DNA from: Candidatus Magasanikiibacteriota bacterium | GTDB lineage: Bacteria; Patescibacteriota; Patescibacteriia; Magasanikbacterales; GWA2-37-8 | NCBI GenBank assembly: GCA_963840935.1 | Contig: CAWJAS010000001.1 | Span: 579,834 to 643,833, forward strand | Direction: 5' to 3' | DNA: 64,000 bases | Part shown: positions 7,889-44,924 of the stretch, piece by piece | Layout: each line of letters begins with the position of its first letter | How positions within the stretch are numbered: the first letter of the stretch is position 1 | Notes under the pieces: generated by a model | Databases searched by the model: none | What the model was told of the DNA's origin: nothing | Seen by the model: the letters and a program-made list of their open reading frames with translations, nothing else | Program-made: the position numbers and the translations under genes

Positions 7889-9326
7889 ATAAATTTTTTC
7901 CAAATAATTTATGACGTATTTCAAATATTATCTCCTTGTTAAGCCCACCGGTAATAAACAACAAAATTACGTAAACCGCGACCCCGATTGGAATGGTATA
8001 TATAAAATTAATTTTTAGGCCAAGCCAAAATACCAGCGCTCCCATAATAATCGATGGCACAAAAGAACGAATAAAATAACCGAATATCATCTTGCCGTTT
8101 ACCGCCACATACCTGCGAACAAAAACAAACCCAAGCAACCACAAAACCGAATTACCGATTAAAGCCGAAACTGCCGCCCCGTTAATTCCTATTTTTGGCA
8201 AAAGTATCAAATTAAAAATAACATTAACCACAAGCACAATCGCCATAATCATTGTTTGTTTGCGCTGTTGGCCGATGGCGTTCAAAAAAGTTCCGCTAAG
8301 CAGAGCCAAGTAAGAAAACACAAGGCTAAACGCCAAAATTCTTAATGGAGCGACCGATGGAGCATAATTTTGGCCATATACCATAACAATAAATGGTCCG
8401 GAAATGGCAAATATTCCGGTGGCTAATGGAAATACAATTGTGAATAGATAACGCCATGATTTTTCAAAAAGTTTGGCCAAAGCAGAACGGTCTGATACAA
8501 ACAAAGAACTAAATACCGGATACACGCTTGCCGATAAAGCAAGCGGAATAAACTGAAAAGCAAAAACAATTTTATACGGCACGCTCCACCATCCTAATTC
8601 GCGTTCTGATAAAATTTTTGACATTAGCAAGCTATCGCTATATGAATACAGCCGACCAATAATTCCGGCAAGAGCAAACGGCCAAGCCATGTTAAAAAAT
8701 TCCTTGCATGAAGCCGTATTTATAGATGCTCTGATCTTTATCAAACAAACTTTTACCGCAAAAAAACCGGAATAAAACACATTGAATACACTGGCGCAAG
8801 TATATGCTCCAATCAGCCAAATTAACGGCAGTTTGAAATAAAGGGCCAATGAGCCAACAAAAAGCGTTATGAATTGAGAGGCAACAATGCCGAATGACTC
8901 ATATTTTAAGTTTCTTTTGGCCCTGAAAACGGCGTAAAAAAGCGAGTGCAGATTGTCGAGCCACATTGTGAAACCCGCCAAATAAATCAAATATTTTGTT
9001 GTTTCGGGATAATTCAAAATGTTTACAAAAAATATCACAAGCAAATAAGCCACCGCGCCAAAGATTAATTTGCCTCCAAAAATTGAAGAAAATATGCTTT
9101 GAGTTTTTTCCGGTGATTTTGAAGCTTCGCGAGTAAGGACATTGGCCAAACCAAAATCAGCCACCACGGCAAAAATACTGGTAAATGTTAGGGCAAAAAA
9201 ATACATTCCAGTGTTCTCCACCCCGATTAATCGCGCGATTACCGTAAAATAAACAAAGGAAATTATCTTTTGCCCGATGGACGCAACTGTTAGAAACGAT
9301 GTATTTTTGGCGACAGAGTATGTCAT
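7863..9326 (-). CDS. polysaccharide flippase (Wzx/MOP superfamily)
   Basis: This is a 487-aa protein with about 12-14 TM helices and the typical Wzx layout. Confidence 0.65.
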   Translation of the reverse strand: MTYSVAKNTSFLTVASIGQKIISFVYFTVIARLIGVENTGMYFFALTFTSIFAVVADFGLANVLTREASKSPEKTQSIFSSIFGGKLIFGAVAYLLVIFFVNILNYPETTKYLIYLAGFTMWLDNLHSLFYAVFRAKRNLKYESFGIVASQFITLFVGSLALYFKLPLIWLIGAYTCASVFNVFYSGFFAVKVCLIKIRASINTASCKEFFNMAWPFALAGIIGRLYSYSDSLLMSKILSERELGWWSVPYKIVFAFQFIPLALSASVYPVFSSLFVSDRSALAKLFEKSWRYLFTIVFPLATGIFAISGPFIVMVYGQNYAPSVAPLRILAFSLVFSYLALLSGTFLNAIGQQRKQTMIMAIVLVVNVIFNLILLPKIGINGAAVSALIGNSVLWLLGFVFVRRYVAVNGKMIFGYFIRSFVPSIIMGALVFWLGLKINFIYTIPIGVAVYVILLFITGGLNKEIIFEIRHKLFGKNLYENTNNNP

Positions 9327-15927: not shown

Positions 15928-17079
15928 TTATTTTATCTCCCCTCCGCCCAAGCAAACGCCCTTAGAATAAAACACGGCGAATTGCCCCGGTGTTACCGCG
16001 CGTTGCGGTTGCGCGAATTTTACGATTAGATTACCACGTCGGCCTTTGGCCTTCTCGCAATGACATTGTTCAAGAGCCTGTCGGTGTCTAAGCCGTACTT
16101 CACATTTTAGCGGAAATTTGGGCTCTCGTCCAGCAATCCAATTGATATTTTTGACTTCCGCTTCGTTTGAATAAAGCATCGGGTCATTTTCAAATCCAAC
16201 TATCAATTGATTTTTTTTTGTATTTTTACCAACAATATATACCGACCGTTGGCTCTCATTTTTTAAACCAATTCTTTCTCCGATCGTATAAAAAGCCAAA
16301 CCGTCGTGCTCACCCAACACTTCACCCTTGGTTGAAGTGATGACGCCTTTTTTTGGTTTTATGGTTTTCATCAGGAATTTTTTCATCGGCACTTCGCCAA
16401 CAAAACAAATCCCCATGCTTTCTTCTTTTTGAGCCGTGGGCAAGCCGAATTTTTTGGCCAGATCCCTCACCTTCGTTTTTGGATACTCACCGATGGGAAA
16501 AATTATCTTTTTTAATTGCGTTTGATTAAGCTGATGCAAAAAATATGTCTGGTCTTTATTATCATCTTTTGCCGACAATAATTTGATTTTTTCTTTTTGT
16601 TCTTTTTTTGGAAATTTGATATTTGAAATTTGGAATTCCCGGTTTAACCGGGCATAGTGCCCGGTCGCCAAATAATCAAAACCTAATTTTTTTGCCTTTT
16701 GAAGCCAAGCGCCGAATTTAACAAATTTATTACACAGTACATCCGGATTCGGAGTTCTCCCGGCTTTGTATTCGCGGTACATATAGTCAAGCACAAATTT
16801 TTTGTACTCTCGCTTAAAGTCGAAACGCAAAAGAGGAATACCGATTTTTGCTGAAACCCGTAAAGCATCTTGATAATCGCCTCTCCAACAGGGCTTCGCT
16901 TCGCTACGCCCTGCAAGCGCCTCATGGGTGAATTTATCTGTAAAATCTTCATAATTAACCATAAAAGCGCCGGTCACATCATAGCCCAAGCGAACCAAAA
17001 GAGCGGCGGATACTGAAGAATCAACCCCGCCGGACATGGTGCATAATACTTTAATTTTTTTTGGTTTCGCGTTTTTCAT
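15928..17079 (-). CDS. mnmA: tRNA-specific 2-thiouridylase MnmA
   Basis: The PP-loop 'CTMSGGVDSSVSA' and the C-terminal 'AVTPGQFAVFY...CLGGG' are present. Two internal segments share DNA identity with the dispersed repeat family. Confidence 0.85.
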   Translation of the reverse strand: MKNAKPKKIKVLCTMSGGVDSSVSAALLVRLGYDVTGAFMVNYEDFTDKFTHEALAGRSEAKPCWRGDYQDALRVSAKIGIPLLRFDFKREYKKFVLDYMYREYKAGRTPNPDVLCNKFVKFGAWLQKAKKLGFDYLATGHYARLNREFQISNIKFPKKEQKEKIKLLSAKDDNKDQTYFLHQLNQTQLKKIIFPIGEYPKTKVRDLAKKFGLPTAQKEESMGICFVGEVPMKKFLMKTIKPKKGVITSTKGEVLGEHDGLAFYTIGERIGLKNESQRSVYIVGKNTKKNQLIVGFENDPMLYSNEAEVKNINWIAGREPKFPLKCEVRLRHRQALEQCHCEKAKGRRGNLIVKFAQPQRAVTPGQFAVFYSKGVCLGGGEIK

Positions 17080-17126
17080 ACTTAATAATACTTATCATTA
17101 TACCCGAATTCCCATATTTATCAAAC

Positions 17127-17157
17127 AAAAAAACACTCCGGTTGTTTAACCGAAGTG
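17127..17157 (-). terminator. rho-independent terminator for the zinc-ribbon gene
   Basis: On the minus strand the transcript reads CACUUCGG-UUAAACAA-CCGGAGUG followed by UUUUUUUG. Confidence 0.5.
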
Positions 17158-17172
17158 CTTTAATTGGCTTTT

Positions 17173-17505
17173 TTAAGCCGCGCGTTTAGCGCGAAGACAG
17201 TCAACGCACAAAATTGCTTTGTCGCCGGACGGAATAAATGGCAATTTATCTATATGTTTGCCACAATCCGAACAGTTTACATCAACATCATGCATTTGTC
17301 TTGGACCGCGGTTATCGCGGAAACCGCCACGAGGCGCACTGGCTCTTTTTTCTTGCCAAAACGCGCGATTGCAATCGTTACAATAAACTTTGCGATCGCC
17401 AGACGGTTGGAACGGAAGCTGAGAGATATGGGCTCCGCACTTTGCGCATTCTAAGTCCACATCATACATCGGCTTGTCGTCGTTACCAAAAGACATAATT
17501 TTCAC
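17173..17505 (-). CDS. tandem Cys4 zinc-ribbon protein
   Basis: The protein has two copies of 'D(V/L)D..C..CG.HI..LPF.PSGD+.+.C.DC'. Confidence 0.5.
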   Translation of the reverse strand: MKIMSFGNDDKPMYDVDLECAKCGAHISQLPFQPSGDRKVYCNDCNRAFWQEKRASAPRGGFRDNRGPRQMHDVDVNCSDCGKHIDKLPFIPSGDKAILCVDCLRAKRAA

Positions 17506-17649
17506 AGATCTTAATTCCCAAAAATGTGTTTTGAGATTACTTATTTAATCGACCTTCCGCTTTGTTAAGCGGGATATTTGGGAACTACGCTATTCGCGGC
17601 CCAAAAATTACCGTTATATTATACCACAAAAAAAGGAAAAAGTCAATAG

Positions 17650-19524
17650 CTAATCATCGAACTCAACCACCTGCCCGGGCCTGATCGGATTTGATTTTAC
17701 CGGTTCGGTCGGCTTTGCCTGCTCAATCGGTTTTAATACTGGTGCAGACGGCGGATTATCCGGCTCCGCATTTGATTTGACTATCGGTATGGGATTTAAA
17801 ACAATCGGAGCCGAATTTTCTTCTTCTGCTTCGGCGATTATTTGACTCAAAGGGCGCGGAGCCGGATGATTCCTGGGTTTATCTTGCCTGGCGCCACGCG
17901 ATTGATTAAATTGTTTTTTACCTCCTTTATTTTGCTCATGCTGACCGCCGAATTTTTTTGCGGGCGCGGAATGTTGTGCCGGTCTTTCCTTCTTTTTTTC
18001 CGCCCGCTCGGCCTCGGCCGAAAGCTCTTCGTCGGTTTTTTTCTCTAATTGATCTTTAACCAAAAAATCACCTAATTTTTTTGGCGCGGAAGCCGGAGCC
18101 GGAGCGGGCTCATCTTCACCATCATCTTCTAGGCCAATTTCCAAACCGCTCCATCGTTTAATTTTTTCTTCGATTTTATCCCGTGGTGTGCCATACCGTT
18201 CGCGCGTCACTCTGATAACTTTTTCCGTACTGCCTGTCGCAAATCCAATCGGAGGCAAAGTCAAAGATGAAAATGGCCTGGAAGACACACCGTCAATCAT
18301 TAATTTTAAATAAATATTGAACTTCGGCAAATTTACCAAATCTTCTTCAATAAAAGTCGGCGCGAATTCTTTTGCCAAAATATCGGCATCGGTTGAACCG
18401 ACTCTGTATGTGACCAAACTGCCGACGTTACCGATAACCGCCGCCAAAACTTTTTCATCAAGTTGCTCCATATATTGGTGAGCCATAATCAATCCCAAAC
18501 GGTATTTGCGAGCTTCGGATAAAATATTGGCAAAACTTTCGGTGGCAAAATTTTGGAACTCATCAACATAAAGAAAAAAATCTTTACGCTCCTTTTCCGG
18601 AATATCGACTCTCTCCATTGCCGAAAGTTGAATTTTGGTGATAAGCATACCCCCCAATAAGCGCGAATTGTCTTCGCCAATTCTGCCTTTGGATAAATTC
18701 ATGATAAATATTTTTTTCGTGTCCATCATCTCGCGGATATTGATTCTGGATTTTACCTGCGCCACTATATTTCGAATAACCGAGGCCGATAAAAATTGAC
18801 CGATTTTGTTTTGGATAGGCGCCACCGCTTCCTGCTTGTAGCGGTCGTTATAGGCGGCGAATTCAGTTTCCCAAAAAGCCCTGACCACCGGGTCCTTTAA
18901 ACTGCGCACCACTCGCAAACGATAGTCTTCATCCGCCAAAAGACGATTAATACCGAGTAGTGTAGTATCCGGATAATCCAAAAGAGCAAGAATGGTGTTG
19001 TTTAAAATATATTCCATCCTCGCGCTCCAAACATCCGGCCAGATTTTTTTAAACACGCCCATGAGACCGGATGCCACCAAATGTTTGTGGTCGGGATTAA
19101 CTGTTTCCAAAATATTAAAACCGATCGGATAATTAATATCCGCCGGATTAAAGTAAACCACGTCATTGATGCGATTGGCGGGTATATAATCAATTATTTT
19201 TTCGGCAAAATCACCGTGCGGATCAACCAAACCAACTCCGTGCCCGGCATATATATCATTAAGAACCATGTTTTCAAGCATGGTTGTTTTGCCCATTCCG
19301 GTTTTGCCGACCACATACATGTGCCTGCGTCTGTCGTCCAATTTGATGCCGAATTTTCGGTATTGATTCCTGTAATTCGTCATCCCAAAGTAATTCACTT
19401 CAGCATTTGGCTCCACCAGCGGTTTTTTTTCGATTGGATTGTCATCTGCGTCTGTCATAGCAATATTATACACCTTCCCGGCCTTTTCGTTAAGCGAATA
19501 GCTTGGCAATTTCCGCGACATCAA
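17650..19524 (-). CDS. VirD4/TraD/TrwB-like type IV coupling-protein family ATPase, soluble, with disordered Pro/Ala/Lys-rich C-terminal tail
   Basis: Walker A 'VVGKTGMGKTT' and Walker B 'FFLYVDEFQNF' are present, and 'LIMAHQYMEQL' resembles a TraD/TraG C-terminal motif. No N-terminal TM helices are seen. The start is ambiguous; an internal Met at 19458 would avoid overlap with the HIT gene. Confidence 0.55.
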   Translation of the reverse strand: MMSRKLPSYSLNEKAGKVYNIAMTDADDNPIEKKPLVEPNAEVNYFGMTNYRNQYRKFGIKLDDRRRHMYVVGKTGMGKTTMLENMVLNDIYAGHGVGLVDPHGDFAEKIIDYIPANRINDVVYFNPADINYPIGFNILETVNPDHKHLVASGLMGVFKKIWPDVWSARMEYILNNTILALLDYPDTTLLGINRLLADEDYRLRVVRSLKDPVVRAFWETEFAAYNDRYKQEAVAPIQNKIGQFLSASVIRNIVAQVKSRINIREMMDTKKIFIMNLSKGRIGEDNSRLLGGMLITKIQLSAMERVDIPEKERKDFFLYVDEFQNFATESFANILSEARKYRLGLIMAHQYMEQLDEKVLAAVIGNVGSLVTYRVGSTDADILAKEFAPTFIEEDLVNLPKFNIYLKLMIDGVSSRPFSSLTLPPIGFATGSTEKVIRVTRERYGTPRDKIEEKIKRWSGLEIGLEDDGEDEPAPAPASAPKKLGDFLVKDQLEKKTDEELSAEAERAEKKKERPAQHSAPAKKFGGQHEQNKGGKKQFNQSRGARQDKPRNHPAPRPLSQIIAEAEEENSAPIVLNPIPIVKSNAEPDNPPSAPVLKPIEQAKPTEPVKSNPIRPGQVVEFDD

Positions 19525-19891
19525 TTTTTTCTTCCCTCTTTATTATGCTGTGCATTGACCCGCCTCCATCCCCTTCCCACCGCGGGAAAATATGCCAATG
19601 AACATGGGGCACTACTTGACCCGCGACCGGTCTGTCATTCGCGCCCACATTGTATCCTTCGGGCTTCAAAATCTCTTGGACTCTTTGCATGGCGCTGTAA
19701 AGCCCCAAAGAAAAATTAGCCCAATCAATCGAATTGAATTCAGACATGTTTTCAAAATGTTTTTTTGGCACAACCACGGTGTGCCCTTTGGCGTGCGGAT
19801 AAATATCCAAAAAAGCAAGAACGTGTTCGTCTTCATAAACCTTGTGGCACGGAATTTCACCGGCAATAATTTTGCAAAATAAACAATCCAT
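19490..19891 (-). CDS. HIT family hydrolase
   Basis: The histidine triad 'HVHWHIFPR' is present. The start is at 'MDCLFCKII'. Confidence 0.8.
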   Translation of the reverse strand: MDCLFCKIIAGEIPCHKVYEDEHVLAFLDIYPHAKGHTVVVPKKHFENMSEFNSIDWANFSLGLYSAMQRVQEILKPEGYNVGANDRPVAGQVVPHVHWHIFPRWEGDGGGSMHSIIKREEKIDVAEIAKLFA

Positions 19892-19898
19892 AAAAAAA

Positions 19899-22052
19899 TT
19901 AATTAGTAAATTCTTTTGATAAAATTTTATCTTCAATAAGCAAATAGCATTTTTCGGCTCCGGTTAAATCTCGGGCTTGATTCCATAAATTTTCGTCATC
20001 ACTGCTATTTTTTATTTCATTATATAAAACCATGAGTTCGCTTTGTCCAAAATCTTTATCAATCGGGAAACCTCCGCCGATAACTTTTTTTGCCGACAAA
20101 GCTTCCAAAGCTAAAAGCGGATAGGTATCGGCGATAACGCAATAATTTTTCGAACCGTTAATTTCTTCCCAAATAATTCGCGCCGATTGATATTCGGTTT
20201 CACTCATTGATCGACTGGTTGGACCGAGCGAATATGATGACGCAATTCCAATGGAAAATATAAAAATAAAAAGCAAGGGGAAAAATGCTTTTTTTGTGAA
20301 CATTTTTTGAAGCCAGGCAAACATAAAGACAATGCCAAATACAGCGATTATTGGCTCGAGTCTTCGGCTGAGCAAATGACTGCCATCCAAAAAATATCGA
20401 CAAATTAAATAACCGACAATTACCCCGAGCGACAAAATAATAAATAACTTGTCATAACTCTCCCCTCTTTTTTTCATTTGGCGCGCTCCAAAAAAAATGG
20501 CGACAACGGCAAAAATCATCAAAACAACAATCCAGTATCTCCACTCCGTAAAACCGTTTGGCACAAATCCGTAAGTTGGCGCCTGATTAAAAAATATGTT
20601 GCCGGCTTCAATCAGGTGAGGCCTTGGACCATTCGCCAAATAAAAACCGCTAATATTTCCAACCAATTGTTTGGCCGATGAAAACAAGTTAATTTGAGAA
20701 TTTATTTTTGAATATCCGGCTACGATTTCAAGCAATGGGATTGCCAAAACAGAAAATATTAACAAGCCGGCAAGCATCCATTTCTTTAGTTTGTCTGAAT
20801 GATGTTTGTTTGAATACAAAATTTTCTCAACAATAATCCAACCAAGAGCAAATAAAATCAAATATAAACTATAACCAAAAAAAGAAATAAAAAATAATAA
20901 TGCCAAAGCGGGAATTTGAAAATTATTGGGCGATGAAATTCTTTTAATGAGTAACAACAAAATTATTAGGAAAAACAATAAGCCAAAATTAACAGGCAGT
21001 GAAAACGCGCCAGCCGAATGCAAAGCAAACGGCCATAATCCAAGCCATGCCAAAAATAATGACTTTCTTTTTCCAAAATTCAAGACAACACCAAGCTGAT
21101 ACAAAATTATGGGTAATATTATGCCGGCAATAATCGGTTGTAGCCAAGCGATTAATGCAATCAAATCAATACCGGTCGTTTGATTCACTGTGGAAACAAC
21201 TCCCCAGAATTGGCTGTAAGCAAAAAGGCCCGGATTAATCCGCTCAACCCAATTTCCTTCAGCCGAATAGTTCACAATTTCAACCGACCCGCTATTTTTC
21301 ACTTGCTCCAATATGGCCAAGTGCCTCCACCCATCCGCGCCCCAAAACAAATTACTGCTAAGAGGCAAATACGAGAGCATTGCCAAGTAAGCGATAATAA
21401 TTAAAACCAAAATTGATTTTATAGAAATTTTGGAAAAAATCAAAGCGCCCAAAATCAAAGTCGATAAAAAAAATAAATAAATATAATTTCCGGAAATTAT
21501 TTGCCACGGAGTAATAAGCGCGCCGTCAAACAACGATGATTTTGTCAAAAAATACAATCCGGAAATAATTAAAAAAAGAAAAATAACAATATAATATTTT
21601 TTGGGTTCCAAATCAACCGTCTCTTCTTCCATTTCTTTTATTTCTTCATTTTTTTGGCCTTCCACCTTCGGTTTTATTTCACCGGCCAAAACCGAAAATA
21701 ATCCTATCACCAAAAATATTAAGGCAATAATAACCGAATTTAAACGACCGAATAGAATAAATATTCCGGAAAGCGACCCGATAAATGCAAACGACAAAAA
21801 ACCGGCCAAAATTCGAGCGCAAATTTTATCGGTTAAATGGAAAATGCCGGCCAAAAACTTTTCAAATCCGATTGATGAAAAAAATAAAAACAAACCAAGC
21901 ACCATGAGTCCCAACCAGTTCAAATGCCAGAATTCGGCGTTAAAAAAAACCAAAAAAGAAACCAGGCAAAATATAATAATTTTTTTGTATAAGATATTAT
22001 TCATAAACTGAATTATACTGATAATTGACAATTTTGGCAAAGAATCGTACAT
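19899..22052 (-). CDS. large polytopic membrane protein (~14 TM) with C-terminal soluble domain; function unknown (possibly GT-C-like)
   Basis: Hydrophobicity pattern only. It is divergent from the CDP-alcohol phosphatidyltransferase gene. Confidence 0.4.
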   Translation of the reverse strand: MYDSLPKLSIISIIQFMNNILYKKIIIFCLVSFLVFFNAEFWHLNWLGLMVLGLFLFFSSIGFEKFLAGIFHLTDKICARILAGFLSFAFIGSLSGIFILFGRLNSVIIALIFLVIGLFSVLAGEIKPKVEGQKNEEIKEMEEETVDLEPKKYYIVIFLFLIISGLYFLTKSSLFDGALITPWQIISGNYIYLFFLSTLILGALIFSKISIKSILVLIIIAYLAMLSYLPLSSNLFWGADGWRHLAILEQVKNSGSVEIVNYSAEGNWVERINPGLFAYSQFWGVVSTVNQTTGIDLIALIAWLQPIIAGIILPIILYQLGVVLNFGKRKSLFLAWLGLWPFALHSAGAFSLPVNFGLLFFLIILLLLIKRISSPNNFQIPALALLFFISFFGYSLYLILFALGWIIVEKILYSNKHHSDKLKKWMLAGLLIFSVLAIPLLEIVAGYSKINSQINLFSSAKQLVGNISGFYLANGPRPHLIEAGNIFFNQAPTYGFVPNGFTEWRYWIVVLMIFAVVAIFFGARQMKKRGESYDKLFIILSLGVIVGYLICRYFLDGSHLLSRRLEPIIAVFGIVFMFAWLQKMFTKKAFFPLLFIFIFSIGIASSYSLGPTSRSMSETEYQSARIIWEEINGSKNYCVIADTYPLLALEALSAKKVIGGGFPIDKDFGQSELMVLYNEIKNSSDDENLWNQARDLTGAEKCYLLIEDKILSKEFTN

Positions 22053-29822: not shown

Positions 29823-31214
29823 TTATTTATTACCTTTAATAAAAGGACCGCCGACAGCTAAAATATCGTAACCGCGTTTCTGCAAATCCGTATACGCGTG
29901 TTGCGCCATGCGCCGACCATCGGCGATTAAATAAGGAGTCTGACAAACACTAATAATGATTTGATCGACCGTGCTGAATTGAGGCCAGTCGGTTAGAATA
30001 AAAGCCGCGTCTGAATCGCACAAGGCCTCTTTTTCATTTTTGCAGTAAATAATCCGTTTATCATTTTTTTCCGGCCAATATTTTTTTAAAAGATCCAACG
30101 CCACCGGATCAAAAACTCTCAATTCATCAACATTGTCATCTAATAATTTTTCCGCAATATGCACTGCTCCGGAATTACGCACATCGTTAGTATCTCTTTT
30201 GAACGACAATCCTAAAACGGCAATTTTCTTTCCTTTAACATCAAAGTCGGCATCATTTTTAACTCGTTGATAAAAATGTTCTCGTTGATAAATATTACCG
30301 GATAAAACCTGTTTAATTTGTTGTGAGTTGCTTCCGGCTTTTTCTAATTGAAAAGACAACGCGGCGGCGTCTTTTGTTAAACAACTTCCGCCGGCATATA
30401 TATTGTTATAAAATCCATAACTGCCAATTCTTTTGTCGGCCGTCACTATTTTTCTGATTTTTTCAAAATTTATTCCTTGAAACGACTCGCTTACCCTTCC
30501 AACCACATCAAAAGAAGTAACTAGCCGGCTCAATAATATAAAATTAGCCAATAATTTTCCGGCGGCCGCTTCTCTGGGGCCGGCTTCAATATAACTACCA
30601 CCGGATGAATAATAAAAACGCTGATAAACTTGCTTCATCACTGAAAAATCTTCTTCTCTCAGCGCACCTATCACTGTTCTGTCGGGACTAAAGGAGTCGT
30701 GAATAGCCTGTCCTTCAACCAAAAATTCCGGATTTGAAACAACGCCAAAATTCGTCACTCCGGCCTCAGACAATTTTTGCTCCGCGACCTCCGCCATCTC
30801 AATCGGTACGGTGCTTTTATTGACGACAACGATACGTTTCTCTTGCTTGCCATTGTTCCTCTTGACCAGTCCGGTTGCCAAAGAGTTCAACGCTTCAAAA
30901 TAAATATCCAATTTGTAATTTCCATCTTCTCCAATCGGAGTAGGCACGCAAATAAACACGACATCAGCATCATCAAATGCTTTTTCAACTGTTTGATAAT
31001 CTGCGGTAAAGCTGATATTCTCTCTATTTTGCACCACTAAACTGCCCAAATCTTGTTCAAATAATTCTTGCTCTATTAAGTCGCGATTATAGGTATTAAA
31101 TATATTGATTCTTTTTTCATTTACATCGTATACCAAAACATCGTGACCGAATTTCGCCATCACCGCCGATGAACATGCCCCTACAAAACCGGCACCTATA
31201 TATATAAGCTTCAT
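29823..31214 (-). CDS. nucleotide-sugar dehydrogenase (UDP-glucose/GDP-mannose dehydrogenase family)
   Basis: The N-terminal 'IGAGFVGA' is followed by the central catalytic Cys region 'GGSCLTKD'. Confidence 0.75.
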   Translation of the reverse strand: MKLIYIGAGFVGACSSAVMAKFGHDVLVYDVNEKRINIFNTYNRDLIEQELFEQDLGSLVVQNRENISFTADYQTVEKAFDDADVVFICVPTPIGEDGNYKLDIYFEALNSLATGLVKRNNGKQEKRIVVVNKSTVPIEMAEVAEQKLSEAGVTNFGVVSNPEFLVEGQAIHDSFSPDRTVIGALREEDFSVMKQVYQRFYYSSGGSYIEAGPREAAAGKLLANFILLSRLVTSFDVVGRVSESFQGINFEKIRKIVTADKRIGSYGFYNNIYAGGSCLTKDAAALSFQLEKAGSNSQQIKQVLSGNIYQREHFYQRVKNDADFDVKGKKIAVLGLSFKRDTNDVRNSGAVHIAEKLLDDNVDELRVFDPVALDLLKKYWPEKNDKRIIYCKNEKEALCDSDAAFILTDWPQFSTVDQIIISVCQTPYLIADGRRMAQHAYTDLQKRGYDILAVGGPFIKGNK

Positions 31215-31486
31215 ATTTTAGATATTTTATACAGTTCTTCGACTGAGACAAGCATCTATTGGCCAGCGAAAATTTTGTGATAATTTGGCGCGCCCCATTC
31301 TCACCCAAACGAAGCCGTAAACTATTATCTTGAACTTATAATATCAAAGACGTTTGAAAATAGACCAATAAACCAGCCCCACCGGTCACTAATATTTTTT
31401 TCATATATTTTTATAAATATTTTCTATTTGATTTAACATTTTTTCCAAAGAAAATTTTTCAACAACATCGTCTTCCGTTCCCCATT

Positions 31487-32491
31487 TCAATCGTATTTTC
31501 GCAATTTTAATACAGCTTCTTTAATTTGTCCAACCTGATTTTTAACCAAAATTCCGTTTTGTTCATTCACCGCTTCACTAACTCCCCCGACATCACTGGC
31601 TATTATCGGCAAACCAGCGGACATGGCTTCCAAAATTGTATATGGGAAACCTTCCCAAGCGGAAATGAAAACAAAAATATCTGCTAATCTTAGTTGGGCC
31701 ATGGCTTCGACTTTTGGCAATGCGCCCAAAAATTCAACATCAATATTTTTTTCTTTGGCTAAATTTTCTAAACCGGTCTTCTTTGGTCCATCACCAACAA
31801 TTGTGAACTTTGTTTTATTTTTTATTTCTTCTGGCAAACCGGCAATGGCCTCAATCGTTAATTCCGGTTTTTTCGGTTCGGCCAATCGGCCAATAAATAC
31901 CAAACCGATTTTTGATTTTTGTCCGCCGGCTGGCGGATTAATTTTAGAATCATCCATAACCGATACCGTCGAAACGCCATTATAAATTACTTTAAACTTA
32001 TTTTCTGGCGCCAAACCATATTTTAATCCCAATTTTTTTACAAACTCTGCCACGCAAATATATGTGTCGGTATATTTGGCGCAAAGCTTTTCCAGCCACA
32101 AAACCGGATATTTTACCCACGGCTTCATTCCAATATTGAATCCCCAACCATGCGCGGTGTAAATTGTGCGGAATTTTCCTTTAATCGCAAGACGTCCCAA
32201 AATTCCGGCAGATGAACTATGACAATGCACAATGTCCGGTGCGAATTCATCGGCGAGTTTCCTGGTTTCTTTTATGGCGTTGGACAATCTCCGCGGGCAT
32301 GGTTTATTAGAAAAATATTTATTATCAACAAAAGCAACACCGATTTTTTCACATTCGTTTTTGAGCCAGCCATCGCCCGAACTCATCACAATAATCTCGT
32401 TTCCTTTTTCTTTAAAATAACGGCAAAGATCGGCAACATGCGTTTGCGCGCCTCCGGCTTCCGATTTGGTAATAAGATAGAGAATTTTCAT
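31487..32491 (-). CDS. glycosyltransferase family 4, apparently frameshifted near 3' end (true end probably 31401)
   Basis: 'EGFPYTILEAMSAGLPIIASDVGGVSE' is a GT4 signature. The -1 frame continues 'LKWGTEDDVVEKFSLEKMLNQIENIYKNI*', a typical GT4 C-terminus. Confidence 0.7.
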   Translation of the reverse strand: MKILYLITKSEAGGAQTHVADLCRYFKEKGNEIIVMSSGDGWLKNECEKIGVAFVDNKYFSNKPCPRRLSNAIKETRKLADEFAPDIVHCHSSSAGILGRLAIKGKFRTIYTAHGWGFNIGMKPWVKYPVLWLEKLCAKYTDTYICVAEFVKKLGLKYGLAPENKFKVIYNGVSTVSVMDDSKINPPAGGQKSKIGLVFIGRLAEPKKPELTIEAIAGLPEEIKNKTKFTIVGDGPKKTGLENLAKEKNIDVEFLGALPKVEAMAQLRLADIFVFISAWEGFPYTILEAMSAGLPIIASDVGGVSEAVNEQNGILVKNQVGQIKEAVLKLRKYD

Positions 32492-32494
32492 TTG

Positions 32495-33262
32495 TTAAAT
32501 TAATCGTAAATAGGCAAACATAATTCTAAAATATGCTTTTATAATTGCCAAACAATAATTGGGATAAGAGCCGTCATTGTATTGCCTTATTATTCTCAAA
32601 TGCTCTTTGGCGGAAAATGCCCTGTTTTTCCAAGTGGCGCTTGATAAATGCTTGCGGTAATTGATTAACACATCAGAAAAATTCATCAATTTACCCTTTT
32701 TCCCCATTCGCAAAATCAAGTCATAATCTTCTCCCAATTTATACTCTTTATAACCATCAATTTCAAGAACCGCTTTTCTCCTATACATTATTGAGGAATG
32801 AACAAATTGATTGCTGAATAATAATTTATTTCTGATTCTCTCGTCTGTTTGTTCAAAATTTATCTTTCCAATAACAGAGCCCGCCTGGTCTATTACCCCC
32901 GCCATACCGCCGACTAAAACATAATCTTTATTATTATCAAGAAAATCAACTTGTTTTTTTATTTTATCTTTATCAGTCCAAACATCATCACTATCAAGCA
33001 CGGCCATGTATTCACCTTCGCACAAAGATAGGGCGATTTTCCTGCTCTCGGCTATTCCTTTATTCCGGATTTGCGAGGAATATTTTATTGGCAAATTTTG
33101 ACCTGTATATTTTTTTATAATTTTATCGGTATTGTCCGTTGAGCCGTCATTCACAACAACAAGTTCCCAATCTGAAAAACTTTGAAACAAAACACTTTCA
33201 ATCGCTTGCGCGATGAATTTGTCTCTATTATAGGCAACCATTATTATACTTACTTTTGGCAT
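32495..33262 (-). CDS. glycosyltransferase family 2
   Basis: 'VSIIMVAYNRDKFIAQAIESVLFQ...VVNDGSTDNT' indicates GT2. Confidence 0.75.
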   Translation of the reverse strand: MPKVSIIMVAYNRDKFIAQAIESVLFQSFSDWELVVVNDGSTDNTDKIIKKYTGQNLPIKYSSQIRNKGIAESRKIALSLCEGEYMAVLDSDDVWTDKDKIKKQVDFLDNNKDYVLVGGMAGVIDQAGSVIGKINFEQTDERIRNKLLFSNQFVHSSIMYRRKAVLEIDGYKEYKLGEDYDLILRMGKKGKLMNFSDVLINYRKHLSSATWKNRAFSAKEHLRIIRQYNDGSYPNYCLAIIKAYFRIMFAYLRLI

Positions 33263-33263
33263 A

Positions 33264-34058
33264 TTATATTCTTAACCAATTTGATGGCACAATATCCATT
33301 TGTTTGGCTTTTTTATCATTGAACCATTTTTTTGGCGCAATCACAATTTTTTCGGAATTATCATTCAACCACGCCCCCCACCAACTAAAACTGCTATTGG
33401 CAATAATATTGTGTTTGCATTTGCTCATCAAAATTAATTCTTCAATATCTTCGATTTCAGGGCAAGAAACAAAAACAAATTCATTGCCTTTCAAATTTTC
33501 TTTCGCCCAGTGAATATCATCCGAAAAAACAAAAAAAATCGGATTATTTATTTTTTCTTTAATTATTCTCGTTGCTTCATTGTAATAATCCAAACCGCAA
33601 ACACCATGATAGGCGTTAATTTTTTTATTCGCCACATAATCCCCCCGCCTTATGTGCAACGAAACAGAATCGCTATTTTCTATTCTTTGCAAATATTCTT
33701 TTGCTGGCGCCGAAAAATCATTTTTTAAAGTAAATTCTTTTCTAATTTTATCGGCAATACCAATAAAATATTTTTCATTCTGATAATATTCATCAACAAA
33801 AAAACCCAACCGTCTTTTTATTTTATTCAAATAATTAATAAATAAATCTTTTTTGGTGATAAATTTACCAAACCTTGTTTTTGTTTGAATATTAAATTTA
33901 TTCAATTTAAAAATCCTGGCCGTATCAACAACGGGCTTCGCGCCGTCAAAAAAAGAAATATCAAAAGCAATTCGCTTCCCTGCAATTTCCAAATTTCTGC
34001 CATAGGCATATTGAAACATCTGGTTTCCGAGACCGCCTTTGATTTTGATAGCACGCAT
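33264..34058 (-). CDS. alpha-1,2-fucosyltransferase (GT11 family)
   Basis: 'IKGGLGNQMFQYAYG' is the GT11 motif I. Confidence 0.7.
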   Translation of the reverse strand: MRAIKIKGGLGNQMFQYAYGRNLEIAGKRIAFDISFFDGAKPVVDTARIFKLNKFNIQTKTRFGKFITKKDLFINYLNKIKRRLGFFVDEYYQNEKYFIGIADKIRKEFTLKNDFSAPAKEYLQRIENSDSVSLHIRRGDYVANKKINAYHGVCGLDYYNEATRIIKEKINNPIFFVFSDDIHWAKENLKGNEFVFVSCPEIEDIEELILMSKCKHNIIANSSFSWWGAWLNDNSEKIVIAPKKWFNDKKAKQMDIVPSNWLRI

Positions 34059-34107
34059 AATATTATTTTATAAAAAATAAATAATATCTGTTTGCAAAAT
34101 TATAAAT

Positions 34108-34875
34108 TTACTTACAGTAATCATCGCTAATAATCAAATAATTGCAATACTGGAAATTTTCCAAATCTTGTATATATTTAACCTTTACCAACTTATCCGG
34201 TAATATCTTGAAAAATGAGAATGAATAATTGTTAAAATAATCAAATATATCCTTTAAAAATATTCCGGCATCGATGTATGTACCGCCATATTCCAACTGA
34301 ATTATATTAATATTTTTTTCTTTTAACATTCTTTCCGCGCCCTTCAATACTTCCATTTCATTGCCTTCAACATCGATTTTTAGAAAATCTATTTTTTCAA
34401 TTTTATTATCAAAACAATAATCATCTAATTTGTTTATTGCGACTTTTTCCGTAACAACTTTATTTTTATCAACCAATTCATCTCTCAAATACAAAGAATT
34501 AACCGTTGAATCATTGTCAAAAATATAAAATACCTTTTCCTCGTTCGCAGAGCCTAACCCAAAATTATTAAGCACAACATTTTTAGAATCAATATTTTGT
34601 TCCAATTTGCTAAAAGTTGAATGCCCGGGCTCAAAACAATGCACATGCGCATTCGGCACTATACCCAAAACCGTTTTTGTCCAATCACCCACATTTGCTC
34701 CAACGTCAAAAATTACATCATTTTCATTTAAATATTTTTTTAAGACAAACATCTCTCCGTTGGTGTCAATCTCGCAATTATTCTCTCCGCGGTGATCAAA
34801 AACCAAACGCTTTGCCACTCGATAAATAGAATTATTGCTGGATATTAAATAAAATAATTTTCTTAATATTTTCAT
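34108..34875 (-). CDS. FkbM-family methyltransferase
   Basis: 'VIFDVGANVGDWT...HCFEP' is FkbM-like. Confidence 0.7.
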   Translation of the reverse strand: MKILRKLFYLISSNNSIYRVAKRLVFDHRGENNCEIDTNGEMFVLKKYLNENDVIFDVGANVGDWTKTVLGIVPNAHVHCFEPGHSTFSKLEQNIDSKNVVLNNFGLGSANEEKVFYIFDNDSTVNSLYLRDELVDKNKVVTEKVAINKLDDYCFDNKIEKIDFLKIDVEGNEMEVLKGAERMLKEKNINIIQLEYGGTYIDAGIFLKDIFDYFNNYSFSFFKILPDKLVKVKYIQDLENFQYCNYLIISDDYCK

Positions 34876-35801
34876 AACTTAATTAAATTGACAAAATTTT
34901 CGGCTACGCGACGATGTGAAAAATTTTCTATCACATATTGTCGAGGATTAAATTTTTCCAGATGTTCACTCATAAATAACCAATTATTTTGGAATTCATT
35001 AATGTCTTTAAAAAATATTCCGCAATCTTTCGTCAAATACGGCGCGCTAATTTTTTCATCTTTCCAAGAGATGCCATTATATTGCCAATAACCCCTATTC
35101 CAGACCAGCGTTGGAACATTTTTTTCCCACGCCTCCGCCAAAGCGAGGCCCTGGCTTTCAGACGGAGAAAAATAAATCATAAATTTTGCCTCGTCTAGCA
35201 AATCAAGATAAGTATCATGCCGATAATATCCATATTTTATTAAATCAACAGATACTTTTTTTTGAGCCAAAAAATGCCTAACATCTGATAATAATTTCTC
35301 ATCGCAATTTTTTGCATAGATTATGACTCGTTCTTTAGTTAATTTTTTTTGAGTTGTTTCATCTATGCCTGCCGGCCAAATCACAATTCTGTCGGATAAT
35401 TCCGGGTTCATATTAACCCATAGATTTTTTACCCAAAGAGACGGTACAATAATTACATCAATCGCTTTACCCATAATTATCCCATTTTTTTCGCTTGGAA
35501 CCACAACCATTACCGGGCCAACAATTAATTTTTTAATTTTTCCTTTCTTTTTTGCCTCTATCGCCCACTTCAAAGCTTCCAAGCTTCCATTGATATACAC
35601 AATATCATCGGGTTTAATTTCGTTCGCGCTAATATTAAATTTAAAATCAAAATTTAACTCTTTCAGTCCTTTTAATAAACTATCAACTACCACATCCGGT
35701 CCGCGCTTTTGCCCAAGCAAAAATTTGATAAAAGATTTAATATGTCTAATAAAATCTTTAAAATTTAATACAGGTGATTTTGTTAGAATTACTAAAGACA
35801 T
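34872..35801 (-). CDS. putative glycosyltransferase (GT-B C-terminal half-like)
   Basis: The call rests only on 'SPSESQGLALAEAW', which resembles the GT-B donor-binding motif. Confidence 0.35.
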   Translation of the reverse strand: MSLVILTKSPVLNFKDFIRHIKSFIKFLLGQKRGPDVVVDSLLKGLKELNFDFKFNISANEIKPDDIVYINGSLEALKWAIEAKKKGKIKKLIVGPVMVVVPSEKNGIIMGKAIDVIIVPSLWVKNLWVNMNPELSDRIVIWPAGIDETTQKKLTKERVIIYAKNCDEKLLSDVRHFLAQKKVSVDLIKYGYYRHDTYLDLLDEAKFMIYFSPSESQGLALAEAWEKNVPTLVWNRGYWQYNGISWKDEKISAPYLTKDCGIFFKDINEFQNNWLFMSEHLEKFNPRQYVIENFSHRRVAENFVNLIKL

Positions 35802-35802
35802 A

Positions 35803-37038
35803 TCAATTTAATGCTTCATCAATCCATTTTTCAAATTTACCCATGTTGTTTTGAATTATAAACAACTCATCACCTTTTTCTTTTGCATGTTTGCCCATTT
35901 CAACAATTTTACCGTTATTTTTAGCTTCAATAAATTCTTTCATAAATTCCGCATATTGATTTAAATCATCAATTTTCGCGACGCGCGAGAAGGAATTATC
36001 CAAATATTCCAAATGAGCATTCCAAACGACAGATTTGTGCGAAATAATCGGCTTTCCGCACAACATTGATTCGGCAATATTTAAACCGCATGTTTCGCCA
36101 TCTTTGCGAAAGTGCCCCAAAACATCAATGGCATTATGGAAAGCCCATACATCTTTTTCCTCGGCAATCAAAGGTAAAAAATGCACATTCGGAATATTTT
36201 CTTCGCGCACAATTTGCTCTAATTTTGGCGATGGCGCCACAATCAAATAATGGGCGTTGGAATATTTTTTAACAACTTCTTTGAAGGCGTTTATGCCAAT
36301 CGGGTCAAAAATATTATCATCAGGCCGGCCAATACGACCAAAGATAAACTCATTTTCGTTAATACCCAACTTAATACGTAAATTACGACCGCGATTCAAC
36401 GGAATTTCCGATGGGCCTTCGCTTGGTACATACATAACTTCAACTTTATCACTTGTAATACATGGTCTAATCGTATTAGCCGTCAAACTTGAATTACATA
36501 CATGCTTAACGATGTTTTTCTGCACGGATACAGAGCCAAAAACATTAATAAATATTATCGGTAATTTAATAATATTTGCCGTTGGAAATTCCGGATAACC
36601 GGAACCCGCCGTGACAAATAAATCAATATTATAATCTTTTATCACATCAAAAATATGCGGTTTCATTCCGGTAATATAAAACGGTAATTTGTTTTCAACA
36701 CTTTCATAGTCAAAATCAATCAAATGAATGCCGGAATTTTCCAAATATCCCTTTCGTTCGCTATGATTTTTGGAAGAATACATGAAAAAAACTTCATATT
36801 TTTTCTTATCAAGATATTTAGCTAAAATTTGCAAATTTTTTTGTGTGCCAGCGTATGACAAGCCATTAATTTCGTAAAATAAAATTATTTTTTTATTATC
36901 ATTTGATAAATTATTATTATATTCACAGATTCCGCCACGACGGCGAGAAATATACAATCGATAAAAAGACAATAAAATCTTCGCTTTATTTAAAAAACAT
37001 GATGGAAATATTTTTTTTGCCAAACTTATTAAAGACAT
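35803..37038 (-). CDS. glycosyltransferase (GT-B / GT4-like)
   Basis: 'ETCGLNIAESMLCGKPIISH' resembles an E-x7-E region. Confidence 0.5.
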   Translation of the reverse strand: MSLISLAKKIFPSCFLNKAKILLSFYRLYISRRRGGICEYNNNLSNDNKKIILFYEINGLSYAGTQKNLQILAKYLDKKKYEVFFMYSSKNHSERKGYLENSGIHLIDFDYESVENKLPFYITGMKPHIFDVIKDYNIDLFVTAGSGYPEFPTANIIKLPIIFINVFGSVSVQKNIVKHVCNSSLTANTIRPCITSDKVEVMYVPSEGPSEIPLNRGRNLRIKLGINENEFIFGRIGRPDDNIFDPIGINAFKEVVKKYSNAHYLIVAPSPKLEQIVREENIPNVHFLPLIAEEKDVWAFHNAIDVLGHFRKDGETCGLNIAESMLCGKPIISHKSVVWNAHLEYLDNSFSRVAKIDDLNQYAEFMKEFIEAKNNGKIVEMGKHAKEKGDELFIIQNNMGKFEKWIDEALN

Positions 37039-37946: not shown

Positions 37947-37973
37947 ATCCTTATTATTAATAGCACGTCATTA

Positions 37974-38720: not shown

Positions 38721-38833
38721 AATTAGCAGTCTATTTTTTAAAAAATTTAAATATTTTATATATAATTGAATTATCAGAAATAAATCTCTGCATTGTAGAA
38801 TGATAAAATTTTTGAAAGATATTTCTCGGGTCT

Positions 38834-41449: not shown

Positions 41450-41454
41450 GATTA

Positions 41455-42399: not shown

Positions 42400-42400
42400 A

Positions 42401-43952: not shown

Positions 43953-43962
43953 AATTTAATAT

Positions 43963-44922: not shown

Positions 44923-44924
44923 AT

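What the first reader, a model, noticed from the sequence alone, without database searches (positions are those of the whole stretch)
17173..19524. Soluble VirD4/TraD-like ATPase paired with a tandem Cys4 zinc-ribbon protein, without other T4SS genes
The 624-aa ATPase has the TrwB/TraD-type Walker A 'VVGKTGMGKTT' and Walker B 'FLYVDEFQNF'. It lacks the N-terminal TM helices of canonical coupling proteins and ends in a ~160-aa Pro/Ala/Lys-rich disordered tail. Directly downstream on the same strand is a 110-aa protein made of two 'C..C-x18-C..C' zinc ribbons with the conserved 'LPF.PSGD' motif and its own terminator. No VirB-like components are present in the window. This could be a DNA-translocation or uptake module, for example a competence/DNA-processing motor, or an orphan coupling ATPase with a Zn-ribbon partner. 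It is not a described system as far as the sequence shows.
Basis: inference. Interest (0 to 1): 0.55.

Follow-up and report, generated by a model that had tools for sequence, protein, structure and literature searches.

The report
Split coupling-type ATPase with zinc-ribbon partner
This is the motor piece of a secretion-type (T4SS coupling-protein-like) ATPase that nearly all Patescibacteria carry and conserve more tightly than their ribosomal proteins. It is linked by gene fusion in sister lineages to the small double zinc-ribbon protein next door and to a membrane piece encoded elsewhere, and its cellular job is still unknown.

Summary
A 602-624 aa ATPase without a TM segment (17650..19458/19524, -) has intact Walker A and B motifs and a 162-aa disordered tail. 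A 107-110 aa protein with two CxxC-x18-CxxC ribbons (17173..17496, -) follows, with its own promoter and terminator. The window has no T4SS genes among the ORFs checked.

The ATPase is T4CP-type, not FtsK or HerA. It belongs to a huge, vertically inherited Patescibacterial family. Its core is more conserved than S13, S11, S4, IF-1, DnaB or AlaRS in the same loci.

The zinc-ribbon link is supported, mainly by fusion. At least 26 of 86 related loci carry one copy of the same Pfam domain inside the ATPase tail, and none of these also has the separate gene. Gene order is weaker evidence, because the zinc-ribbon gene stays with mnmA more often than with the ATPase.

I read this as a three-piece split T4CP-like translocase. 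Substrate and conduit are inferred only. It is a new variant of a known kind, of moderate interest.

The parts
17650..19458 (-). T4CP-type P-loop ATPase CDS (602 aa from ATG 19458; the mechanical ORF runs to TTG 19524)
18130..19395 (-). Highly conserved ATPase core (residues 44-465 of the 624-aa ORF), 69-99 % identical across related loci
19282..19308 (-). Walker A GKTGMGKTT (G73-T81)
   Evidence: invariant columns
18550..18579 (-). Walker B FFLYVDEFQN (F316-N325)
17653..18138 (-). 162-aa disordered tail with short conserved motifs (acidic patch, PKKLGDFL, PRPLSQII)
17653..17685 (-). Extreme C-terminal motif IRPGQVVEFDD. It is conserved as (I/L)KPGQxVxF(D/E) in this clade, with or without a fused Zn ribbon.
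19465..19493 (-). Promoter-like site (TTAACG-17-TATAAT) just upstream of the likely ATPase start
17618..17646 (-). Promoter-like site TTGACT-17-TATAAT (11/12 matches, TG extension) in the ATPase/Zn-ribbon intergenic gap
17173..17496 (-). Tandem Zn-ribbon protein CDS (107 aa from ATG 17496): two ribbons joined by an Arg/Gly-rich linker
17371..17448 (-). Zn ribbon 1, CAKC-x18-CNDC
17197..17274 (-). Zn ribbon 2, CSDC-x18-CVDC
17130..17161 (-). Intrinsic-terminator-like hairpin (14 pairs) plus T-run after the Zn-ribbon gene

Best explanation
The 602-aa protein is the motor subunit of a Patescibacteria-wide, chromosomally fixed, T4CP-type (VirD4/TrwB-like) ring ATPase.

The ancestral full-length form had three parts: an N-terminal TM helix plus a VirB4-N-terminal-domain-like DUF8128 domain, the P-loop ATPase, and a disordered tail carrying a CxxC-x17/18-CxxC zinc ribbon.

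In this lineage the three modules are separate genes:
- DUF8128 is encoded outside the window.
- The ATPase is here.
- The zinc-ribbon module is the downstream gene, duplicated to two ribbons joined by an RGG-like linker.

Inferred mechanism:
- The ATPase oligomerises and docks on the membrane through DUF8128.
- The zinc-ribbon/RGG protein, or the fused ribbon in other lineages, together with the tail's short motifs, binds and hands over a nucleic-acid substrate, most likely DNA.
- ATP hydrolysis drives that substrate's translocation.

Shown here: family assignment, extreme conservation, the domain fusions, the VirB4-NTD-like fold of DUF8128, and the dispersal of the genes.

Inferred only: oligomeric state, physical contact between the pieces, the nature of the substrate, and whether the conduit is the Patescibacterial T4SS.
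For: T4CP assignment:
- Pfam TrwB_AAD_bind 1.6e-11 and T4SS-DNA_transf are above their cutoffs. FtsK matches the P-loop only.
- The best PDB sequence hits are TrwB and DotL.
- The core is 31 % identical over 89 % of its length (E 1e-62) to an Embleya plasmid T4CP. That gene lies next to a PrgI-family gene, a VirB4-like ATPase, a replication-relaxation protein and an NlpC/P60 hydrolase.
- Walker A-B spacing is 243 aa, against 230-244 in T4CPs and 124 in FtsK.

Housekeeping status:
- There are at least 8000 homologues, and all those that carry an organism name are Patescibacteria.
- The core is more conserved than rpsM, rpsK, rpsD, infA, dnaB and alaS in every syntenic locus compared.

Zn-ribbon link:
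- At least 26 of 86 loci have one PF23477 ribbon inside the ATPase tail. Pfam scores are 38-48 bits against a cutoff of 27 in L047, L058 and L064.
- 28 loci have the separate two-ribbon gene downstream on the same strand. No locus has both (Fisher p 1e-6, not corrected for phylogeny).
- In about 2 Mb of surveyed Patescibacterial DNA the domain occurs nowhere else.

Membrane module:
- 50 of 150 family representatives carry a roughly 400-aa N-terminal extension.
- This extension is homologous to a protein encoded immediately upstream of the ATPase in about 31 loci and hits Pfam DUF8128.
- The Embleya T4CP aligns end to end with the long form.
- In Magasanikbacteria, DUF8128 lies 9 kb and 72 kb from the ATPase on the same replicon.

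Tail:
- It is a roughly 160-aa disordered extension ending in a conserved ...PGQxVxFD-COOH. This is comparable to F TraD's roughly 150-aa tail ending ...EPGDDF. From my own knowledge of Lu et al. 2008, that TraD tail docks the DNA-binding protein TraM.
Against: - No DUF8128 homologue was found in the 64-kb window, so its presence in this genome is inferred from relatives.
- The Zn-ribbon gene has its own strong promoter-like site and terminator.
- In a Zn-ribbon-centred sample, the ATPase lies within 1 kb upstream in 11 of 27 loci, while mnmA lies within 1.5 kb downstream in 30 of 40.
- In one MAG the Zn-ribbon gene and the ATPase are on different contigs.
- No locus in the sample shows the ATPase next to T4SS genes. 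Published counts put only 148 of 5,713 Patescibacterial T4CP homologues near virB4. The homologue in S. epibionticum was not essential although the T4SS was (PMC12102498).
- The structure prediction of the ATPase itself failed (pLDDT 45.6), so the T4CP fold and its all-alpha domain were not confirmed structurally.
- No experiment bears on substrate, oligomer or contacts.
Confidence: 0.45

Rival explanations
1. The pairing is inherited gene order only. The two-ribbon protein is an independent, abundant small nucleic-acid (probably RNA) binding protein that heads the mnmA-alaS-gtrA-infA-rpsM-rpsK-rpsD block. The ATPase works without it. The ribbons in ATPase tails of other lineages are an independent use of a common binding module.
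For: - The Zn-ribbon gene has its own promoter-like site and terminator.
- When genes are inserted, the breakpoint falls between the ATPase and the Zn-ribbon gene, which stays directly upstream of mnmA (21 of 27 loci).
- mnmA is within 1.5 kb in 30 of 40 loci, against the ATPase within 1 kb in 11 of 27.
- Loci exist with Zn-ribbon-mnmA and no ATPase within 7 kb, and one MAG has them on separate contigs.
- The linker is RGG-like.
- M. mazei CxxC-x17-CxxC proteins are stand-alone, readily detected small proteins (PMC12704099).
Against: - The same Pfam domain is fused into the ATPase tail in at least 26 loci, and the fused and separate forms are strictly complementary.
- The domain always lies between the ATPase core and mnmA.
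- No mnmA or other gene carried the domain in about 2 Mb surveyed.
- ATPase-Zn-ribbon pairs without mnmA exist (L033, L124, L127, L141, L164).
Confidence: 0.3
2. It is a truly cytoplasmic housekeeping motor, exapted from a T4CP, that acts on the chromosome or on RNA (repair, segregation, replication or transcription clearance). It works independently of any membrane conduit or T4SS.
For: - No TM segment.
- Conservation exceeds that of ribosomal proteins.
- The neighbourhood is housekeeping (DnaB, RecR, YbaB, ribosomal proteins).
- T4CP homologues occur in 2,918 genomes against VirB4 in 2,417, are rarely near virB4, and the authors say exaptation cannot be ruled out (PMC12102498).
Against: - One third of family representatives are fused to a TM-anchored VirB4-NTD-like domain, and another large fraction have it as the overlapping upstream gene.
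- That gene persists in Magasanikbacteria next to secDF.
- A paper on TM7x mentions FtsK (search hit only, paper not opened), so an FtsK replacement may not be needed.
Confidence: 0.2
3. It is a remnant or cargo of an integrated conjugative or mobile element, that is, a conventional conjugative coupling protein.
For: Pfam/NCBI naming as a T4SS DNA-binding domain protein. Distant relatives sit on plasmids.
Against: - It lies in the same housekeeping synteny block across many genera.
- It is more conserved than ribosomal proteins.
- No relaxase, integrase or T4SS genes are nearby.
- GC content is the same as the flanks.
- 389 of 482 plasmid relatives are on non-mobilizable plasmids.
Confidence: 0.03

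Closest known systems
Type IV coupling proteins (TrwB of R388, TraD of F, VirD4, DotL)
   Same: - Walker A/B P-loop core and a DPHGD motif after Walker A.
- About 240 aa between the Walker motifs.
- Pfam TrwB_AAD_bind, T4SS-DNA_transf and TraG-D_C hits.
- A long disordered C-terminal extension ending in a short conserved motif, as in F TraD.
   Different: - No N-terminal TM helices in this polypeptide.
- No linkage to a relaxase or T4SS genes.
- Chromosomal, vertically inherited and extremely conserved.
- Far below every NCBIfam equivalog cutoff.
- No significant BLAST similarity to F TraD.
Actinobacterial plasmid T4CP with a long N-terminal domain (Embleya sp. WP_331738717, 812 aa)
   Same: It aligns end to end with the long Patescibacterial form (N-domain plus ATPase; E 3e-80). 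It is 31 % identical to the window core.
   Different: It sits in a T4SS-like cluster with PrgI-family, VirB4-like, replication-relaxation and NlpC/P60 genes. No Zn-ribbon (PF23477) hit was returned in its Pfam scan. It is a single polypeptide.
VirB4 / TrwK
   Different: The ATPase domain matches T4CP profiles, not the VirB4 profiles CagE_TrbE_VirB, AAA_10 or P-loop_TraG. Patescibacteria have a separate bona fide VirB4 (PMC12102498).
'T4CP homologues' of Patescibacteria reported in PMC12102498 (2025)
   Same: Probably the same proteins: 5,713 VirD4-type hits in 2,918 of 3,035 genomes, 148 of them near virB4. The authors say exaptation cannot be ruled out.
   Different: My term searches of that paper, which were for T4CP and genome terms rather than for these features, showed no mention of the Zn-ribbon link, the DUF8128/VirB4-NTD-like module, the split architecture or the exceptional conservation. 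I could not map this clade onto their table.
CxxC-x17-CxxC small proteins (TIGR04272 / PF23477), e.g. M. mazei A00184 and A01980
   Same: Same domain family. The archaeal members bind zinc by ICP-MS (PMC12704099).
   Different: Here there are two ribbons with an RGG-like linker, x18 spacing and an LPFxPSGD(R/K)PVYC signature. The domain is also fused to a T4CP-type ATPase in sister lineages. The function of the family is unknown.
FtsK/SpoIIIE and HerA pumping ATPases
   Same: Same P-loop superfamily. There is a weak DUF87 hit (25.9 bits against a cutoff of 23.2).
   Different: FtsK_SpoIIIE matches 25 residues of the P-loop only (15 bits against a cutoff of 24). Walker spacing is twice that of FtsK. 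No FtsK gamma-domain or HerA_C hit was returned, and no NurA-type gene appears in the +-10 kb annotation.

Membership tests
T4CP (VirD4/TraD/TrwB) | P-loop NBD with Walker A and Walker B | tested here: met
   GKTGMGKTT and FFLYVDEFQN, invariant in 25 homologues
T4CP (VirD4/TraD/TrwB) | Family profile match above the curated threshold | tested here: met
   PF10412 gives 44.2 bits (cutoff 20.5) over residues 63-358. PF02534 gives 21.7 bits (cutoff 20.1). PF12696 gives 21.8 bits against 22, just below.
T4CP (VirD4/TraD/TrwB) | All-alpha domain inserted between Walker A and Walker B | tested here: inconclusive
   Spacing is 243 aa, against TraD 230, Embleya T4CP 244 and FtsK 124. The only moderately confident part of the failed AF2 model (residues ~141-245) is helical. 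No reliable structure was obtained.
T4CP (VirD4/TraD/TrwB) | N-terminal transmembrane anchor | tested here: not met
   Maximum KD19 is 1.26 and the protein starts about 50 aa before Walker A. A TM-bearing DUF8128 module is fused or adjacent in relatives.
T4CP (VirD4/TraD/TrwB) | Genetic linkage to T4SS (VirB4 etc.) or relaxase genes | tested here: not met
   None in the window ORFs checked or in the 86 related loci examined. The literature reports 148 of 5,713 near virB4.
T4CP (VirD4/TraD/TrwB) | Equivalog-level identity to a named T4CP (NCBIfam TraD, CD1115, etc.) | tested here: not met
   Best is 42.5 bits against a cutoff of 366 (SXT_TraD). conju_CD1115 gives 33.6 against 250.
T4CP (VirD4/TraD/TrwB) | Hexameric, DNA-stimulated ATPase that recruits substrates to a T4SS | not testable with these tools
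   Needs biochemistry or cryo-EM.
FtsK/SpoIIIE | Motor-domain profile match and gamma (KOPS-binding) domain | tested here: not met
   PF01580 gives 15.1 bits (cutoff 24) on residues 67-91 only. BLAST against E. coli FtsK matches only 25 residues at the P-loop.
HerA | HerA central plus C-terminal domains, with a NurA or other nuclease partner | tested here: not met
   DUF87 gives 25.9 bits (cutoff 23.2), but this domain is shared with VirB4 and T4CPs. No HerA_C hit was returned, and no NurA-type gene appears in the +-10 kb annotation. PADLOC HerA hits are weak and partial.
VirB4 | VirB4-type ATPase profiles (CagE_TrbE_VirB, AAA_10, P-loop_TraG) with an N-terminal VirB4 domain | tested here: inconclusive
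   [not shown]
CxxC-x17-CxxC domain (TIGR04272 / PF23477 zf_Tbcl_2) | Profile match above cutoff, with four Cys in CxxC...CxxC | tested here: met
   75.2 bits (cutoff 27) and 73.7 bits (cutoff 36), two copies each. All eight Cys are invariant in 23 homologues.
CxxC-x17-CxxC domain (TIGR04272 / PF23477 zf_Tbcl_2) | Zinc binding | not testable with these tools
   Shown by ICP-MS for M. mazei members only (PMC12704099).

The most novel reading that the evidence does not exclude
This split machine (small 2-TM protein?, DUF8128, ATPase, Zn-ribbon/RGG adaptor) could be a Patescibacteria-specific, near-universal nucleic-acid translocation motor. It may be the com-independent DNA or nucleotide acquisition route that CPR biologists infer must exist. 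In evolutionary terms it would be a surviving intermediate between VirB4 and VirD4, with a VirB4-type N-domain on a VirD4-type ATPase.
Probability: 0.15. Interest if true: 0.85.

Novelty: new variant of a known kind. Interest (0 to 1): 0.55.

Why it matters
Patescibacteria make up a large share of bacterial diversity. They cannot make nucleotides, and how they obtain nucleic-acid building blocks is open: the com system is dispensable in the one species tested, and a T4SS of unknown substrate is essential (PMC10187176, PMC12102498).

A T4CP-type ATPase that is kept in nearly every genome and conserved more tightly than ribosomal proteins must do something central. This work supplies three concrete partners to test: the ATPase, the DUF8128 membrane piece and the Zn-ribbon/RGG protein. 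It also gives a clear architecture.

That turns 'orphan T4CP homologue, possibly exapted' into an experimentally addressable system. It also offers a possible evolutionary link between the VirB4 and VirD4 ATPases.

Tried and rejected
- AlphaFold2 on the ATPase with a 25-sequence alignment failed (pLDDT 45.6, pTM 0.28). The available homologues were too similar, so no fold search of the ATPase was possible.
- hhalign of the family profile against single sequences of F TraD, F TraC and E. coli FtsK gave only low probabilities (4-33 %) for all three. It cannot discriminate between them.
- PADLOC gave only a weak mad8 match (53.6 bits) and partial HerA and DndH matches, with no sign of a defence system.
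- Rfam on 16900-20100 found nothing credible.
- Searches for PF23477, zf_Tbcl_2, TIGR04272, IPR026363 and DUF8128 in the paper library found nothing.
- The FtsK-replacement idea was dropped because a paper on TM7x mentions FtsK. This is a search hit only; I did not open the paper.
- The mobile-element idea was dropped because of synteny and conservation.
- The supplement of PMC12102498 is stored truncated. It did not contain the assemblies I could cross-reference.
- Accession AP001918 was not held; NC_002483 was used instead.
- The listing of cluster members gave no names for the long-form relatives.
Full report
**Observation.** Both ORFs are present on the minus strand as described.
- The ATPase ORF is listed from a TTG at 19524 that overlaps the upstream HIT-family gene. 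Homologue N-termini indicate the real start is ATG 19458 (MTDADD...), giving 602 aa.
- Walker A (GKTGMGKTT) and Walker B (FFLYVDEFQN) are invariant among 25 homologues.
- The protein has no TM-like segment (maximum 19-residue hydropathy 1.26).
- It ends in a 162-aa tail rich in Pro, Glu, Ala and Lys.
- After a 144-nt gap lies the 107-aa (ATG 17496) protein with two CxxC-x18-CxxC units. The gap contains a near-consensus TTGACT-17-TATAAT site with a TG extension.
- The small protein scores 75 bits on Pfam zf_Tbcl_2 (cutoff 27) and 74 bits on TIGR04272 (cutoff 36). A hairpin with a T-run follows it.
- The surroundings are housekeeping genes: HIT, a 717-aa membrane protein, CDP-alcohol phosphatidyltransferase, DnaB, YbaB and RecR on one side; mnmA, alaS, gtrA, infA, rpsM, rpsK, rpsD and rpoA on the other.
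- The other large ORFs of the window are PriA, polysaccharide-synthesis proteins, PBP2 and similar, not T4SS parts.

**What the ATPase is.**
- Pfam places it with coupling proteins. TrwB_AAD_bind gives 44 bits over residues 63-358. T4SS-DNA_transf is just above its cutoff and TraG-D_C just below. FtsK_SpoIIIE matches only 25 residues of the P-loop, and DUF87 is marginal.
- A profile of the family finds only TrwB and DotL among PDB sequences, weakly.
- The nearest annotated relatives on plasmids are an orphan 395-aa ATPase in Sulfitobacter (39 % identity) and an 812-aa Embleya protein (31 % over 89 % of the core, E 1e-62).
- The Embleya protein sits between a VirB4-like ATPase and a replication-relaxation protein, with PrgI-family and NlpC/P60 genes nearby. 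That is a monoderm T4SS cluster.
- Walker A-B spacing is 243 aa. The Embleya T4CP has 244, F TraD 230 and E. coli FtsK 124.
- Membership in the T4CP family is still incomplete. This polypeptide has no TM anchor, no T4SS or relaxase linkage, scores far below every NCBIfam equivalog cutoff, and its structure could not be predicted reliably.

**How conserved it is.**
- The family is enormous: at least 8000 hits, and all those with organism names are Patescibacteria. An exhaustive search finds 23,357 relatives at E<=1e-3.
- I compared the window with 26 syntenic loci. In every one, the ATPase core (69-99 % identical) is more conserved than AlaRS and MnmA. Wherever they are present, it is also more conserved than S13, S11, S4, IF-1, DnaB and RecR.
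- This does not fit a mobile-element gene or a dispensable accessory.
- It matches a 2025 survey that found VirD4-type T4CP homologues in 2,918 of 3,035 Patescibacteria genomes. Only 148 were near virB4. VirB4 itself was in 2,417 genomes. The homologue in S. epibionticum was non-essential, and the authors say exaptation cannot be ruled out (PMC12102498).

**Is the zinc-ribbon protein a partner?**

ATPase-centred sample (86 loci):
- My HMM of the ribbon found 28 loci with a separate two-ribbon gene downstream on the same strand. In 20 of them the gene lies within 800 nt.
- At least 26-28 loci have a single ribbon inside the ATPase tail.
- About 30 loci have neither within 8 kb.
- The fused ribbons are the same Pfam family in the clearest cases (L058 48.5, L064 42.8, L047 38.1 bits; cutoff 27). 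They are weaker in Uhrbacteria-type proteins, at about 20 bits.
- Fused and separate forms never co-occur (0 of 28; Fisher p 1e-6, not corrected for shared ancestry).
- In about 2 Mb of surveyed DNA the domain appears in no other gene.

Gene order alone is weaker evidence:
- When genes are inserted, the ribbon gene stays directly upstream of mnmA (21 of 27 loci) rather than next to the ATPase.
- Several 'neither' loci turned out to have the ribbon gene 10 kb away, or on another contig of the same MAG, still heading mnmA-alaS.
- In a ribbon-centred metagenome sample, the ATPase is within 1 kb upstream in 11 of 27 loci with enough flank, and within 10 kb in 16 of 27. mnmA is within 1.5 kb downstream in 30 of 40.

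I conclude that a functional link is likely. It rests on the fusion and on the complementary distribution of fused and separate forms, not on operon structure. The ribbon gene appears to be transcribed on its own.

**The missing membrane piece.**
- One third of the family's 50 %-identity representatives (50 of 150) carry a roughly 400-aa N-terminal extension beginning with hydrophobic helices.
- This extension is homologous to a roughly 475-aa protein encoded immediately upstream of the ATPase, with overlapping stop and start, in about 31 of my loci. These include all the fused-ribbon loci.
- Precomputed annotation calls it DUF8128 (PF26449), a family on which I found no paper.
- An AlphaFold2 model from 117 sequences is confident (pLDDT 84.7, pTM 0.78).
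- The Embleya T4CP aligns with the long Patescibacterial form across both the N-domain and the ATPase.
- In Magasanikbacteria the DUF8128 gene persists but has drifted away from the ATPase. It lies 5 kb away in L041, 9 kb away on contig WJJZ01000004 and 72 kb away on the complete chromosome OZ246405. In the latter two it lies after secD-secF and a conserved 53-aa two-TM ORF.
- No DUF8128 homologue lies in this 64-kb window, so its presence in this genome is inferred.
- The 'soluble' state is therefore most simply a consequence of gene fission, not evidence of a cytoplasmic function.

**The tail.**
- Tails vary in length and sequence but keep short motifs: an acidic patch after the core, an (I/V)SLxEA-like motif, often a KKKRKRKRK patch in fused forms, and in this clade the extreme C-terminus (I/L)KPGQxVxF(D/E).
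- More distant clades without the ribbon have other C-terminal motifs, such as VPEDxLKxxL and FEEPII.
- F TraD likewise has a roughly 150-aa disordered extension ending ...EPGDDF. From my own knowledge (Lu et al. 2008), that end docks the relaxosome protein TraM.
- The two-ribbon protein has an Arg/Gly-rich linker between ribbons. This composition is typical of nucleic-acid binders, which is an inference.

**Most likely mechanism, and rivals.**
- Best reading (confidence 0.45): a three-piece split T4CP-like translocase. DUF8128 anchors it in the membrane, this ATPase is the motor, and the ribbon protein plus tail motifs act as a nucleic-acid-binding adaptor. The substrate (DNA?) and the conduit (the Patescibacterial T4SS or something else) are open.
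- Main rival (0.3): the ribbon protein is an independent small RNA- or DNA-binding protein of the mnmA/translation block, and the adjacency here is inherited synteny.
- Second rival (0.2): a genuinely cytoplasmic exapted motor.
- A mobile-element remnant is essentially excluded.

**Novelty.**
- The ATPase family is annotated, and its odd distribution has been published.
- My term searches of the 2025 survey (which were for other terms) and my library searches for the domain names turned up no description of the following:
  - the fusion link to the CxxC-x17/18-CxxC ribbon;
  - the DUF8128 module and its VirB4-N-domain fold;
  - the dispersal of the modules in Magasanikbacteria;
  - conservation above that of ribosomal proteins.
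- This is a new variant of a known kind. It is of moderate interest now and of high interest if it proves to be the nucleic-acid acquisition motor of CPR bacteria.

**Limits.**
- There is no reliable structure of the ATPase.
- No whole-genome co-occurrence analysis was possible with these tools.
- All loci sampled come from a related set of Patescibacterial classes, so counts are not phylogenetically independent.
- Nothing here tests activity, binding or localisation.

Noticed in passing
L092:7830-7991 and L093:7821-7982 (Magasanikbacteria loci): A conserved 53-aa ORF with two predicted TM helices (MSD..RHLI.FIGT.IVLLAY..GY.S..NGWWWTAI..) sits between secF and the DUF8128 gene in two distant genomes. 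It could be a VirB3-like small partner of the VirB4-NTD-like DUF8128. It has no Pfam hit.
   Followed up: partly
L097:1-6831, L098:1-6832 (also cluster 3, 44 members in 12 loci): Tandem arrays of three to five ~490-aa 'PEP-utilizers' (PF00391) paralogues plus a PPDK_N gene are inserted between the ATPase and the Zn-ribbon gene in some Magasanikbacteria-like genomes.
   Followed up: no
window 15928-17079 (mnmA) and 86 related loci: mnmA lies downstream of the ATPase on the same strand in 56 of 86 loci, including 21 of 28 loci where the Zn ribbon is fused into the ATPase. The Zn-ribbon gene is the immediate upstream neighbour of mnmA in most genomes. A functional tie between the ribbon protein and tRNA thiolation was not examined.
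   Followed up: partly
window 19490-19936 / 19458-19524: The mechanical ATPase ORF (TTG 19524) overlaps the 3' end of the HIT-family gene by 35 nt. Homologues indicate the true start is ATG 19458, preceded by a promoter-like TTAACG-17-TATAAT inside the HIT gene's end.
   Followed up: yes
L001:7924-8292 (JGI contig Ga0401391_000055): The public gene call places an 80-aa ORF on the opposite strand (8062-8304) where the two-ribbon gene actually lies. The Zn-ribbon gene is therefore missed in that annotation.
   Followed up: yes
L008-L086 record titles: Many MAG records that carry this Patescibacterial ATPase in typical CPR synteny are titled 'uncultured Gammaproteobacteria bacterium'. The titles appear to be mislabelled.
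   Followed up: no
[not shown]
   Followed up: no
window 19899-22052: A 717-aa polytopic membrane protein with no significant Pfam hit is conserved upstream (with HIT) in 24 related loci.
   Followed up: no
window 30000-46000: A low-GC block (0.30-0.35 against ~0.40 elsewhere) holds about 15 same-strand genes. It is flanked by UDP-glucose dehydrogenase and a Polysacc_synt flippase, so it looks like a surface-polysaccharide island.
   Followed up: no
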